Of a DNA stretch of 33,306 bases, positions 3,834 to 4,705 are shown piece after piece; position 1 is the stretch's first letter, and every line of letters starts with the position of its first letter. The DNA lies in NCBI GenBank assembly GCA_034722435.1, contig JAYENX010000039.1, forward strand, positions 1 to 33,306, read 5' to 3'. The DNA comes from Nanobdellota archaeon (GTDB lineage: Archaea > Nanobdellota > Nanobdellia > Woesearchaeales > JAHWHD01). Below the pieces are notes generated by a model, which ran no database searches, had not been told where the DNA came from, and saw nothing but the letters and a program-made list of their open reading frames with translations. The position numbers and the translations under genes were made by a program.

Positions 3834-4553
3834 TTGAATAATAATAATAATAATAATAATAATAATTTAATTATCCCTCTTGATTTTACATGCAATCTTG
3901 CAGAATTTGTTGGAATACATTTTGGTGATGGTTCTATGATTTATGGTCCTAATTATAAATATCGGGTTGCTTATGCTTGTAACTTAAATGAGGTTGATTA
4001 TGTAGAGTATTTTCAAAATTTGTTTTATGAATTATTTAATATTAAGTTAAAAAAAACATTATACTTTAAAAAGAATTGTATTGAATTATATTATTATTCT
4101 AAAAAGTTTTGTGAATATATGATTAATGTATTACAAGTTCCTTCTGGTAGAAAGACTAATTTGATTATTCCTCAATATATTCGGTCTAATAGATTATTAA
4201 CAATTGCTTTTCTTAGAGGTCTTTTTGATACTGATGGTTGTTTAACTGTTCAGCGAGATGGGAAATATAAGTATCTTCTTGCTAAAATAACTACTTCACT
4301 TCCTGATTTTGCATATTCAATTTCTAAATTGTTAAAATCTCTTAATATACATTGTTTTGTTACAAAGAAAGGAAAACATAATCCTGGCTGTGATGTGGTT
4401 ATAAGGCATTTGAATGTTATTGAATTTTTGAATCTTGTTAAGCCTGTGAATTCTAAATATTATAGAAAAATGGGAATGTATGGGGCTACTGGGACTTTCG
4501 GAGTAAAGCTTTTTGATCGTTTGACCTTTTGCTTAAACTGTTCGAATTTCTGA
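3834..4553 (+). CDS. Free-standing two-motif LAGLIDADG homing endonuclease (intein/DOD-like)
   Basis: Motif 1 LAEFVGIHFGDGS, motif 2 FLRGLFDTDGC, both with the acidic catalytic position; no intein splicing termini; start uncertain (TTG, no in-frame ATG before motif 1). Confidence 0.9.
   Translation: MNNNNNNNNNNLIIPLDFTCNLAEFVGIHFGDGSMIYGPNYKYRVAYACNLNEVDYVEYFQNLFYELFNIKLKKTLYFKKNCIELYYYSKKFCEYMINVLQVPSGRKTNLIIPQYIRSNRLLTIAFLRGLFDTDGCLTVQRDGKYKYLLAKITTSLPDFAYSISKLLKSLNIHCFVTKKGKHNPGCDVVIRHLNVIEFLNLVKPVNSKYYRKMGMYGATGTFGVKLFDRLTFCLNCSNF
3837..3866 (+). repeat. (AAT)10 microsatellite encoding poly-Asn
   Basis: Ten perfect AAT units directly after the TTG. Confidence 0.95.
4495..4540 (-). other. 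tRNA intron 3 (59/60, 46 nt)
   Basis: BHB: central helix TTCG/CGAA, bulges AA|C and AG|T, outer helix = T-stem, intron hairpin AGT..AAGC/GCTT..ACT with one extra C. Confidence 0.85.
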
Positions 4554-4574
4554 GATGCCATTCCCTTACATCTT
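4547..4574 (-). other. tRNA intron 2 (53/54, 28 nt)
   Basis: BHB: central helix TCTG/CAGA, bulges GG|A and AA|T, intron stem AGATGT/GCATCT. Confidence 0.85.
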
Positions 4575-4589
4575 CCCAGATCCGAGGCT

Positions 4590-4639
4590 ATCTTCAGGGA
4601 GAGTTTATTTCATCGCCTAAAGGCTCATCTCTCCAGCTA
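4590..4639 (-). ncRNA. tRNA intron 1 (37/38, 50 nt), candidate box C/D-type guide for C34 2'-O-methylation
   Basis: BHB: CTCC/GAAG central helix (one mismatch), bulges AG|T and AT|A. CTGGAG is complementary to C32-G37 and its nt pairing with C34 is exactly 5 nt upstream of a D-like ATGA; C-like CGATGA and a CTGA box also present. Confidence 0.75.
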
Positions 4640-4705
4640 CTGGAGGCCCCTATTCTAGCCAGATTATACTATAGCCCCATATGAAATAATTTGATTTTGT
4701 TGAGT

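What the first reader, a model, noticed from the sequence alone, without database searches (positions are those of the whole stretch)
4481..4678. tRNA-Trp with three BHB introns, two packed into the T-arm
Seen: removing 4590-4639, 4547-4574 and 4495-4540 gives a textbook cloverleaf, and each intron has its own 4-bp central helix and 3-nt bulges. Established: multi-intron tRNAs with non-canonical positions are known mainly from Thermoproteales and ARMAN archaea and need a broad-specificity splicing endonuclease. Only 6 nt (TTCGAA) separate introns 2 and 3, so standard tRNA finders may miss or mis-call this gene.
Basis: partly seen in the sequence, partly recalled or inferred. Interest (0 to 1): 0.8.

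Follow-up and report, generated by a model that had tools for sequence, protein, structure and literature searches.

The report
Three-intron tryptophan tRNA gene, DPANN archaeon
This is the only tryptophan tRNA gene found in a tiny brine archaeon (Woesearchaeota-like, DPANN), cut into four pieces by three protein-spliced introns; it is a well-supported new example of a habit already described in other archaea.

Summary
On the minus strand (4678 to 4481), removing 4590-4639, 4547-4574 and 4495-4540 gives a 74-nt tRNA-Trp(CCA). ARAGORN accepts this product but misses the unspliced gene, and Rfam finds nothing in the window. The introns sit at 37/38, 53/54 and 59/60.

Introns 2 and 3 have perfect 4-bp central helices and 3-nt bulges. 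Intron 1 has 3 of 4 pairs (C34.A).

Orthologues in 26 other genomes of the same order carry the same exons. Many have an uninterrupted T arm identical to the spliced product. One (G040) has the same three-intron layout.

The kind is known: ARMAN-2 tRNA-Pro(GGG) has the same 53/54 + 59/60 pair, and Thermoproteales have three-intron tRNAs. In this genome the 59/60 site is a hot spot (at least 14 genes). Earlier notes of this scan report other multi-intron tRNAs on other contigs.

- The genome has one alpha-type EndA, collinear with the M. jannaschii enzyme and lacking the inserts tied to broad specificity.
- Intron 1 carries an order-wide K-turn with an antisense element placing C34 at the methylation position, like half of the euryarchaeal tRNA-Trp box C/D guide.
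- A LAGLIDADG gene overlaps the tRNA 3' end, flanked by a 20-nt repeat.

No RNA data exist.

The parts
4706..4713 (-). TATA-like box TTTAAATA, 28-35 nt upstream of tRNA nt 1 (candidate archaeal promoter)
   Evidence: Read from the sequence. The promoter function is inferred from the archaeal TATA consensus (own knowledge) and was not tested.
4640..4678 (-). Exon 1, tRNA nt 1-37 (acceptor 5' strand, D arm, anticodon stem 5' strand, anticodon CCA)
   Evidence: It is 78-97% identical to exon 1 of orthologues in the order.
4590..4639 (-). Intron 1, 50 nt, canonical site 37/38. BHB with H = CUCC/GAAG (3/4).
   Evidence: ARAGORN reports this intron at this site when introns 2 and 3 are removed. BHB check.
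4631..4636 (-). Antisense element CUGGAG inside intron 1, complementary to anticodon-loop nt 32-37
   Evidence: Read from the sequence. GGAG is invariant in 12 aligned orthologues and present in 21 of 24.
4610..4628 (-). K-turn module of intron 1: D'-like AUGA (4625-4628), hairpin GCC-UUUA-GGC (4615-4624), C'-like CGAUGA (4610-4615)
   Evidence: The motif is conserved across the order. Hairpin stem: 36 of 36 cells paired, 9 compensatory cells, 0 of 500 shuffles reach the score.
4594..4597 (-). D-like CUGA, 12 nt after the C'-like box. Its spacer AAUAAACUCUCC pairs only with the intron's own GGAGAG.
   Evidence: No stable-RNA target was found, and the box is not conserved in the orthologues.
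4575..4589 (-). Exon 2, tRNA nt 38-53 (anticodon stem 3' strand, 4-nt variable loop, T stem 5' strand)
4547..4574 (-). Intron 2, 28 nt, site 53/54. H = UCUG/CAGA, bulges GG|A and AA|U, inner helix 6 bp, outer helix only 2 bp.
   Evidence: Analogous 53/54 introns occur in L106 (H = UCAG/CUGA) and L113 (H = UCUG/CAGA) (read by eye).
4541..4546 (-). Exon 3, 6 nt UUCGAA = T-loop nt 54-59
   Evidence: Uninterrupted orthologues read CTGGGTTCGAATCCCAG.
4495..4540 (-). Intron 3, 46 nt, site 59/60. H = UUCG/CGAA, bulges AA|C and AG|U. The outer helix is the T stem, contiguous only after intron 2 is removed.
   Evidence: The same site is occupied in 8 orthologues, with G57/A57 covarying with C/U of the intron.
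4481..4494 (-). Exon 4, tRNA nt 60-73 (U60, T stem 3' strand, acceptor 3' strand, discriminator A). CCA is not encoded.
4466..4470 (-). T5 run, 11-15 nt after the discriminator (candidate terminator)
   Evidence: Read from the sequence. The terminator function is inferred.
3834..4553 (+). Two-motif LAGLIDADG endonuclease ORF (239 codons) that converges on the tRNA gene. Its last 24 codons are the antisense of exon 4, intron 3, exon 3 and the end of intron 2.
   Evidence: Pfam LAGLIDADG_3 1.1e-9, translation. A 41%-identical homologue sits in the same position at tRNA-Trp of G007.
3730..3751 (-). Distal copy of the tRNA 3' end. It reads AATCCCAGTAGCCCCA (mature nt 58-73, without intron 3) plus 6 nt of trailer, and forms a 20-nt direct repeat (19/20) with 4475-4494.
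   Evidence: the repeat finder family D1.

Best explanation
This is the functional, single-copy tRNA-Trp(CCA) gene of a small DPANN archaeon (Woesearchaeota-like, 1.3 Mb, 32% GC, from a brine metagenome). It would be transcribed as a precursor of about 200 nt from the minus strand.

Three bulge-helix-bulge introns, at 37/38, 53/54 and 59/60, would be cut out by the genome's one alpha-type splicing endonuclease. RtcB would then join the four exons into a 74-nt tRNA, and CCA would be added afterwards.

Intron 2 borrows three T-stem bases for its central helix, and intron 3 gets its outer helix (the T stem) only after intron 2 is gone. The likely order in the T arm is therefore 53/54 first, then 59/60.

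Intron 1 is an old, order-wide intron. It carries a K-turn (D'/C'-like boxes around a covarying hairpin) and an antisense GGAG that puts C34 five nucleotides from the D'-like box. It probably guides 2'-O-methylation of C34 before or after excision.

Shown here: gene structure, BHB geometry, orthology, presence of the enzymes, K-turn covariation. Inferred: expression, the splicing itself, its order, methylation.
For: - The spliced product is a tRNA-Trp by ARAGORN, and each T-arm intron alone blocks detection.
- With boundaries fixed by the exons, H is 4/4 for introns 2 and 3 and 3/4 for intron 1.
- Orthologues from the same order share exon 1 and mostly intron 1. ARAGORN of them tRNA-Trp with only a canonical intron or none, and their T arm equals my spliced T arm.
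- By eye, 8 orthologues have a 59/60 intron, 2 a 53/54 intron, and L113 (G040) has all three. The 7 whose boundaries the script could set, plus the window's own, have H 4/4 in 7 of 8, with compensatory UUCG/CGAA versus UUCA/UGAA. L118 reads UUCG/CGAA by eye.
- No other tRNA-Trp appears in the genome by Rfam, ARAGORN or BLAST.
- EndA, RtcB, fibrillarin, Nop5 and L7Ae genes are present.
- The 59/60 site is used widely in this genome: 26 hits against 9 in the reversed-genome control, and intron end GAAAG 13 against 0. Eleven of these give ARAGORN tRNAs after excision.
- The K-turn hairpin has 36/36 cells paired, 9 compensatory cells, and 0/500 shuffles reach it.
- A TATA-like box and a T5 run flank the gene.
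Against: - There are no RNA data of any kind, so expression and the junctions are unobserved.
- Intron 1 has a C34.A mismatch in its central helix. Intron 2 has only a 2-bp outer helix. Intron 3 has a 1-nt offset in its inner helix.
- According to the literature (PMC3239211, PMC5829648), an alpha4 enzyme without specificity loops should handle such motifs poorly.
- Thermodynamic folding alone is not distinctive: z = -2.2 for the whole precursor and -0.3 for the T-arm part.
- The D stem is weak.
- The genome is a 94.5%-complete MAG, so a second tRNA-Trp or a second EndA subunit in the missing part cannot be excluded.
- For the guide reading: no box C is present, the duplex with the anticodon loop is only 6-7 bp, and the second spacer has no target.
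Confidence: 0.92

Rival explanations
1. The locus is a decaying or silent tRNA-Trp copy, and the working gene lies in the unassembled 5% of the genome.
For: The genome is a 60-contig MAG, 94.5% complete. A mobile-element scar and a LAGLIDADG gene sit on the 3' end. No RNA data exist.
Against: All stems, the anticodon loop, the T loop and all three splice motifs are intact. A promoter-like box and a T run are present. Orthologues are single-copy and similarly split in other genomes, two of them single-contig assemblies at 99-100% completeness (G018, G027). Most other tRNA genes of this genome are split in the same way, so splitting is the norm here and not decay.
Confidence: 0.03
2. The gene has a different structure. 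Either the distal 3'-end copy (3736-3751) is the true last exon, joined over an intron of about 790 nt that contains the LAGLIDADG gene, or introns 2 and 3 with the 6-nt exon are removed as one unit.
For: A near-identical second 3' end exists 745 bp away. Archaeal rRNA introns can carry LAGLIDADG genes (own knowledge).
Against: The sequence before the distal copy gives no BHB: UGGU would face UUCG (read). The ORF would be antisense to the tRNA. The proximal exon 4 has a perfect BHB and the same intron site as 8 orthologues. Removing 4495-4574 as one unit deletes the T loop.
Confidence: 0.02
3. The conserved module in intron 1 is not a methylation guide. It is only a structural K-turn (an L7Ae platform) or a folding aid that presents the BHB to the endonuclease.
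For: No box C is present. A D-like CUGA occurs only in this genome's copy. The antisense duplex is short (6-7 bp) and lies 3 nt from its target in cis. The second spacer is an orphan. One orthologue splices with a 21-nt intron that lacks the module, and two have no intron.
Against: GGAG is invariant although the BHB does not require it in several orthologues. Its distance from the D'-like box places C34 exactly at the N+5 position. C34 is the residue known to be methylated by the tRNA-Trp intron guide in Haloferax and Pyrococcus (PMC11408192, PMC7994747). Fibrillarin, Nop5 and L7Ae are all encoded.
Confidence: 0.4

Closest known systems
ARMAN-2 (Ca. Micrarchaeum) pre-tRNA-Pro(GGG) with two introns in the T loop (Fujishima et al. 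2011, PMC3239211)
   Same: It has introns at exactly 53/54 and 59/60, leaving a 6-nt T-loop exon, with BHB motifs. The host is a DPANN archaeon, and standard predictors needed manual help.
   Different: The window's gene is a different tRNA (Trp) and has a third, canonical intron. The host enzyme is a single alpha-type EndA, not the three-unit epsilon2 enzyme with its ASL loop.
Multiple-intron tRNA genes of Thermoproteales (Sugahara et al. 2007, 2008; summarised in PMC4090602 and PMC3239211)
   Same: They have up to three BHB introns per gene at canonical and non-canonical sites, recurrent insertion sites, and many genes affected per genome.
   Different: Those hosts are Crenarchaeota with (alpha-beta)2 EndA carrying the Crenarchaea-specific loop. 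This host is a DPANN archaeon with one loop-less alpha subunit.
Box C/D guide intron of euryarchaeal pre-tRNA-Trp (sR50; Clouet d'Orval 2001, Singh 2004; reviewed in PMC7994747, PMC11408192)
   Same: The host tRNA, the intron site (37/38) and the predicted target C34 (by the N+5 rule) are the same. A K-turn-forming box pair is present, as are the C/D RNP proteins.
   Different: Only the internal D'/C' pair is present. There is no box C and no guide for position 39 (G39 here). The intron is 50 nt, where the best-studied case, Haloferax, has about 105 nt (own knowledge). The resemblance is in mechanism; membership is not shown.
Alpha4 splicing endonuclease of Methanocaldococcus jannaschii (PDB 1A79), and DPANN alpha4 enzymes discussed by Kaneta et al. 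2018 (PMC5829648)
   Same: It is 176 aa, aligns over residues 8-176 with 1A79 residues 4-171 without a gap, has the catalytic Tyr/His/Lys in place, and is a single gene per genome.
   Different: Kaneta et al. link tRNA disruption in DPANN to alpha4 enzymes that carry the L3 insert. This enzyme lacks the insert of N. equitans NEQ205 (6 aa before the catalytic His) and that of ARMAN-2 (5 aa after it).

Membership tests
Archaeal BHB (hBHBh') tRNA intron | 4-bp central helix between the two splice sites | tested here: met
   Intron 2 UCUG/CAGA 4/4. Intron 3 UUCG/CGAA 4/4. Intron 1 CUCC/GAAG 3/4 (C34.A), and the same GAAG occurs in about half of the orthologues.
Archaeal BHB (hBHBh') tRNA intron | Two 3-nt bulges on opposite strands, with each cut after the second bulge nucleotide | tested here: met
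   With the exon-defined boundaries, the bulges are AG|U and AU|A, GG|A and AA|U, AA|C and AG|U. The cut position follows the published geometry (own knowledge).
Archaeal BHB (hBHBh') tRNA intron | Flanking outer (h) and inner (h') helices of the strict motif | tested here: inconclusive
   Intron 1: h 5 bp, h' 2 bp plus 6 bp after a 2-nt bulge (the 6 bp read by eye). Intron 2: h' 6 bp but h only 2 bp. Intron 3: h' 3 bp after a 1-nt offset (a further 4 bp by eye), and h 5 bp only after intron 2 is removed.
Archaeal BHB (hBHBh') tRNA intron | Excision restores a canonical tRNA | tested here: met
   ARAGORN calls tRNA-Trp(cca) on the spliced form. Uninterrupted orthologues have the same T arm.
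Archaeal BHB (hBHBh') tRNA intron | Splicing endonuclease and RtcB ligase encoded | tested here: met
   EndA at C58:50280-50807. RtcB at C25:36993-38276, E = 2e-170.
Archaeal BHB (hBHBh') tRNA intron | Spliced junctions seen in RNA | not testable with these tools
   Only DNA runs of one brine metagenome study hold the stretch.
Multiple-intron tRNA genes (Thermoproteales / ARMAN-2 type) | Two or three BHB introns in one tRNA gene at recurrent non-canonical sites | tested here: met
   Three introns, at 37/38, 53/54 and 59/60. The last two are the sites of ARMAN-2 tRNA-Pro(GGG).
Multiple-intron tRNA genes (Thermoproteales / ARMAN-2 type) | Host has a broad-specificity EndA: (alpha-beta)2, epsilon2, or an alpha unit with a specificity loop | tested here: not met
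   There is one alpha-type gene and no paralogue at E <= 10. It has no insert relative to 1A79, NEQ205 or ARMAN-2. 57 of the 60 relatives have exactly one gene. A very divergent beta subunit or a missing contig cannot be ruled out.
Box C/D guide intron of pre-tRNA-Trp (euryarchaeal sR50 type) | Sits at 37/38 of tRNA-Trp | tested here: met
Box C/D guide intron of pre-tRNA-Trp (euryarchaeal sR50 type) | Terminal box C (RUGAUGA) and box D (CUGA) pair | tested here: not met
   No box C lies upstream of the antisense element in any orthologue. CUGA near the 3' end occurs in this copy and few others.
Box C/D guide intron of pre-tRNA-Trp (euryarchaeal sR50 type) | Internal D'/C' pair able to form a K-turn or K-loop | tested here: met
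   [A/C]UGA, a hairpin, then [C/U]GAUGA in 21 of 24 orthologues. The stem covaries.
Box C/D guide intron of pre-tRNA-Trp (euryarchaeal sR50 type) | Antisense element placing C34 at the fifth nucleotide upstream of box D' | tested here: met
   CUGGAGAG|AUGA: the fifth base upstream of AUGA pairs with C34, and the same register holds in the orthologues (UGGAGCG|AUGA). The N+5 rule is established knowledge.
Box C/D guide intron of pre-tRNA-Trp (euryarchaeal sR50 type) | Second antisense element for position 39 | tested here: not met
   Position 39 is G. The 12-nt spacer pairs only with the intron's own GGAGAG. Its only other 12/12 match in the genome is one site on C5 whose context was not examined.
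Box C/D guide intron of pre-tRNA-Trp (euryarchaeal sR50 type) | Fibrillarin, Nop5 and L7Ae encoded; methylation observed | tested here: inconclusive
   The three proteins are encoded. Methylation cannot be tested here.
Alpha4-type EndA | Single gene of about 180 aa with N- and C-terminal domains and the catalytic Tyr-His-Lys | tested here: met
   PF02778 1e-15 and PF01974 2e-29 in one 176-aa ORF. TIGR00324 endA 122 bits against a cut-off of 59.6. Y112, H122 and K153 align with the 1A79 triad.
Alpha4-type EndA | Homotetramer | not testable with these tools
   Inferred only from the single gene.

The most novel reading that the evidence does not exclude
The two T-arm introns and the LAGLIDADG gene docked on the tRNA 3' end may be two sides of one selfish-element conflict. 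In this reading the endonuclease targets the uninterrupted T-arm/3'-end DNA of tRNA-Trp, and the distal repeat, which reads across 59/60 without an intron, is a relic of that allele. The introns at 53/54 and 59/60 would then break up the target and protect the resident gene. If so, homing endonucleases would be one driver of non-canonical tRNA intron gain in DPANN archaea.
Probability: 0.08. Interest if true: 0.8.

Novelty: new member of a known kind. Interest (0 to 1): 0.4.

Why it matters
This locus restores the tryptophan tRNA to the annotation of a genome in which routine tools find only 10-13 tRNAs. It also adds a clean, comparatively supported case to the catalogue of multi-intron tRNAs outside Thermoproteales and ARMAN.

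The more useful point for specialists is the enzyme. An order of DPANN archaea whose tRNA genes are riddled with non-canonical introns seems to run on one loop-less alpha-type endonuclease. That tests the accepted link between enzyme architecture or specificity loops and intron diversity. It also predicts an enforced order of splicing in the T arm.

The conserved half box C/D module in the tRNA-Trp intron suggests that intron-guided methylation of C34 is older or more widespread than the few euryarchaeal cases known.

Tried and rejected
- RNA evidence: no RNA holder listed. Only three DNA runs of one brine metagenome study were returned.
- Rfam at E <= 10 on 4380-4780 gave no tRNA or C/D hit on the minus strand, only weak plus-strand chance-level hits.
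- My BHB-removal plus ARAGORN survey of the genome recovered about 24 loci but is incomplete. It mis-called this very locus as an odd-loop tRNA under one intron-length setting, so I give no total tRNA count.
- A loose scan for 53/54 introns gave 73 hits against 83 in the control, which is no signal.
- A loose scan for other CCA anticodon arms gave 565 against 506, also no signal. The statement 'no second tRNA-Trp' therefore rests.
- Similarity of intron 3 to L121 (G052) turned out to be low-complexity chance, and no tRNA is there.
- Folding energies are not distinctive.
- The weak PF01974 hit on C22 is an unrelated 187-aa ORF, not an EndA subunit.
- The primary papers on the tRNA-Trp guide (PMC92551, PMC2580716, PMC2441990) and on multi-intron screening (PMC1852824) are not held. 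What I say about them comes from reviews or is marked as own knowledge.
- Genomes G001 and G002 are unpublished.
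Full report
**What is there.** The stretch 4481-4678 is AT-poor relative to its 32% GC surroundings. Read on the minus strand, it consists of four exons of 39, 15, 6 and 14 nt separated by inserts of 50, 28 and 46 nt. Joining the exons gives a 74-nt RNA with a 7-bp acceptor stem, anticodon loop CUCCAGA, a 4-nt variable loop, T stem CUGGG/CCCAG, T loop UUCGAAU and discriminator A. CCA is not encoded.

ARAGORN finds no tRNA in the raw window, and Rfam reports no match to any family. On the joined exons ARAGORN reports tRNA-Trp(cca). With only the first insert left in, it reports a 50-nt intron at exactly the proposed site. 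With either T-arm insert left in, it reports nothing. The inserts lie at tRNA positions 37/38, 53/54 and 59/60. The only imperfect part of the cloverleaf is the D stem (one Watson-Crick pair, two G.U pairs and one A.A mismatch). All orthologues share it, so it is native.

**Splice motifs.** I fixed the boundaries from the exons and then asked whether the bulge-helix-bulge geometry is present, meaning four exon bases before the last two pairing with intron bases -6 to -3.
- Intron 2 is perfect in the centre (UCUG/CAGA, bulges GG|A and AA|U). It has a 6-bp inner helix but only a 2-bp outer helix.
- Intron 3 is also perfect in the centre (UUCG/CGAA, bulges AA|C and AG|U).
- Intron 1 has CUCC/GAAG with a C34.A mismatch, and the anticodon stem serves as its outer helix.

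With fixed boundaries, a 4/4 helix has a chance of roughly 0.02, and the added inner helices make chance far less likely.

Intron 2 uses C49, U50 and G51 of the T stem in its own central helix. Intron 3 has the T stem as its outer helix, and the two strands become contiguous only when intron 2 is out. The minimum-energy fold shows the alternative, with the T stem formed and intron 2 as a side hairpin. I infer that 53/54 is removed before 59/60, especially if the enzyme needs the strict motif. This is an inference and has not been observed.

**Comparative evidence.** A conserved neighbouring protein places the organism among DPANN archaea labelled Woesearchaeota (best hit 79% identity). The genome is 1.30 Mb in 60 contigs and 94.5% complete, and it comes from a brine metagenome.

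Searching the 198 nt against 60 genomes of the same order returned tRNA-Trp loci in 26 other genomes.
- ARAGORN of them tRNA-Trp directly: 12 with one canonical intron and 2 with none.
- Their T arm (for example CTGGGTTCGAATCCCAG) is what I obtain by splicing.
- The loci ARAGORN misses carry extra inserts. By eye, eight have one at 59/60 (16 to about 100 nt) and L106 has one at 53/54. L113 (G040) has inserts at 37/38, 53/54 and 59/60, the same layout as here.
- For 59/60, the boundaries of seven orthologues were set from the exons alone. With the window's own intron, the central helix is 4/4 in seven of eight. G57 with intron C (UUCG/CGAA or CGGA) alternates with A57 with intron U (UUCA/UGAA), which is a compensatory change. 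The eighth orthologue, L118, reads UUCG/CGAA by eye.
- The two other 53/54 introns read UCAG/CUGA and UCUG/CAGA.

This is independent support for both the exons and the motifs.

**Uniqueness and genome context.** Rfam's tRNA model finds only 10 tRNAs and ARAGORN about 13 in this nearly complete genome. None of them is Trp. BLAST of the locus finds no second copy.

A direct scan for T arms interrupted at 59/60 gives 26 hits against 9-10 in a reversed-genome control. Thirteen of the inserts end in GAAAG, against none in the control. Sixteen look like real T arms, and eleven yield ARAGORN tRNAs after excision, including Asp, His, Pro, Ser, Ala and two Arg. This tRNA-Trp is therefore one of at least 14 genes with a T-loop intron.

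Earlier notes of this scan on other contigs of the same genome describe three-intron Arg, Lys and Gln genes and a two-intron Met gene. They agree with what I see. I re-tested two of their points: the GAAAG ends and the single simple endonuclease.

**The enzymes.** The genome has one EndA gene, at C58:50280-50807, encoding 176 aa.
- It has both Pfam domains and passes the TIGR00324 cut-off.
- Its best solved relatives are the N. equitans catalytic subunit (7e-36) and the M. jannaschii alpha4 enzyme (8e-32). It aligns with the latter from residue 8 to 176 without a single gap, and the catalytic Tyr, His and Lys are in place.
- It lacks the 6-residue insert of NEQ205 before the catalytic His and the 5-residue insert of the ARMAN-2 enzyme after it.
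- No paralogue appears at E <= 10. The weak hit on C22 is an unrelated ORF.
- 57 of the 60 relatives have exactly one such gene, with open frames mostly of 175-257 aa.

RtcB is present.

The literature holds that alpha4 enzymes need the strict motif, and that broad specificity comes with (alpha-beta)2 or epsilon2 architecture or with specificity loops (PMC3239211; PMC5829648). Kaneta et al. already noted alpha4 enzymes with an L3 insert in disrupted-tRNA DPANN lineages. They also noted that incomplete tRNA sets there call for manual curation. The enzyme here appears to lack even that insert.

**Intron 1.** Unlike introns 2 and 3, intron 1 is conserved in sequence across the order: many BLAST matches run through exon 1 into the first 30 nt of the intron. 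In 21 of 24 orthologues it reads as 3-9 nt, then GGAG(C)G, then [A/C]UGA, then a hairpin, then [C/U]GAUGA, then a variable tail.

In a gap-free alignment of 12 sequences, all 36 hairpin cells pair. Nine cells carry changes on both sides (GC, CG, AU, UA), no shuffle out of 500 reaches the score, and slid registers fall to 11-61% paired. A GA directly 5' of the stem and GAUGA 3' of it is the arrangement of a K-turn formed by D' and C' boxes (own knowledge of K-turn and box C/D architecture).

The invariant GGAG pairs with C32-C35. Counting from the D'-like box, the fifth nucleotide faces C34. This is the residue methylated under guidance of the tRNA-Trp intron in Haloferax and Pyrococcus (PMC11408192, PMC7994747). 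Fibrillarin, Nop5 and L7Ae are encoded.

Against full membership of that family:
- There is no box C.
- The window's CUGA (4594-4597) is not conserved.
- The 12-nt spacer before it pairs only with the intron's own GGAGAG, which is also the inner helix of the BHB.
- Position 39 is G.

I read it as a half guide, about 60% likely to direct Cm34. The guide pairing and the BHB pairing are mutually exclusive conformations, as in the euryarchaeal case (own knowledge).

**Surroundings.** A TATA-like TTTAAATA lies 28-35 nt upstream and a T5 run 11-15 nt downstream.

On the other strand, a 239-codon ORF with two LAGLIDADG motifs (Pfam 1.1e-9) runs into the gene. Its last 24 codons are the antisense of exon 4, intron 3, exon 3 and the end of intron 2. 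The ORF is bracketed by a 20-nt direct repeat, 3730-3749 and 4475-4494, identical at 19 of 20 positions. The repeat consists of the last 14 nt of the tRNA plus 6 nt of trailer. The distal copy continues as AA|UCCCAG, without intron 3, but only two extra bases support that reading.

A 41%-identical homologue (5e-52) sits in the same convergent, overlapping position at the tRNA-Trp of G007. There the T arm is uninterrupted and there is no distal repeat. G040, which has the three-intron layout, has no such ORF within 1.5 kb. The association of this endonuclease family with the tRNA-Trp 3' end therefore looks real. A protective role for the T-arm introns is not supported by these two comparisons, and I keep it only as the low-probability novel case. 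The distal copy cannot serve as the last exon, because no BHB precedes it.

**Verdict.** This is a new member of a known kind:
- up to three introns per archaeal tRNA gene is established (PMC3239211);
- the same 53/54 + 59/60 pair is described in ARMAN-2 (PMC3239211);
- tRNA disruption in DPANN is known in general terms (PMC5829648).

Expression and splicing remain unobserved, because no RNA data exist for this organism.

Noticed in passing
window 3730-4553: A two-motif LAGLIDADG endonuclease ORF (3834-4553, plus strand) is bracketed by a 20-nt direct repeat of the tRNA-Trp 3' end (3730-3749 and 4475-4494, 19/20), and its C-terminal 24 codons are antisense tRNA. A 41%-identical homologue occupies the same convergent, overlapping position at tRNA-Trp in G007 (L105:1645-2346, minus strand), without a repeat. 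A paralogue (28% identity) lies at C23:33565-34155.
   Followed up: partly
window 3752-3777; L105:2400-2420: A GC-rich motif CACTGGACA (tandem ACTGGAC in the window) lies about 60-90 nt upstream of the LAGLIDADG start in both this genome and G007. It may be an element end or a binding site.
   Followed up: no
own genome, 16 loci listed in the notebook (e.g. C11, C13, C16, C25, C30, C36, C46, C52, C56): Position 59/60 is a genome-wide intron hot spot (GGTTCRAA | insert ending YGAAAG | TCC...). Inserts ending GAAAG number 13 against 0 in a reversed control. Introns of C16, C25 (strand index 33962) and C46 are clearly related to each other (TAGTTGACG...GCTTCGAAAG). The C36 tRNA-Arg intron shares AAAGTCAAAC..GAT with intron 3 of the window.
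   Followed up: partly
L102, L105, L112, L118 (relatives' tRNA-Trp loci): Other orthologues carry inserts at further sites: the variable-loop region (L102, L105) and the acceptor/D-arm region (L112, L118, where the 5' 16 nt do not match). Intron sites in this one tRNA therefore vary widely across the order.
   Followed up: no
window 4385-4445 (+): Weak Rfam similarity to box C/D snoRNA models (GUGAUGU ... terminal GGCU/AGCC), E = 5, inside the 3' part of the LAGLIDADG ORF. Probably chance.
   Followed up: no
These are either false calls or tRNA genes with very long inserts.
   Followed up: no
own genome C11:9177-9437 (-): A second L7Ae-family match (1.4e-11) has two in-frame stops (TGA, TAA). 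It may be a pseudogene, a frameshift, or two adjacent short ORFs.
   Followed up: no
window 4719-5852 (-): The gene directly upstream of tRNA-Trp on the same strand belongs to the tryptophan/tyrosine permease family (Pfam 7e-32). It may be a coincidence, but the pairing of a Trp transporter with the Trp tRNA is curious.
   Followed up: no
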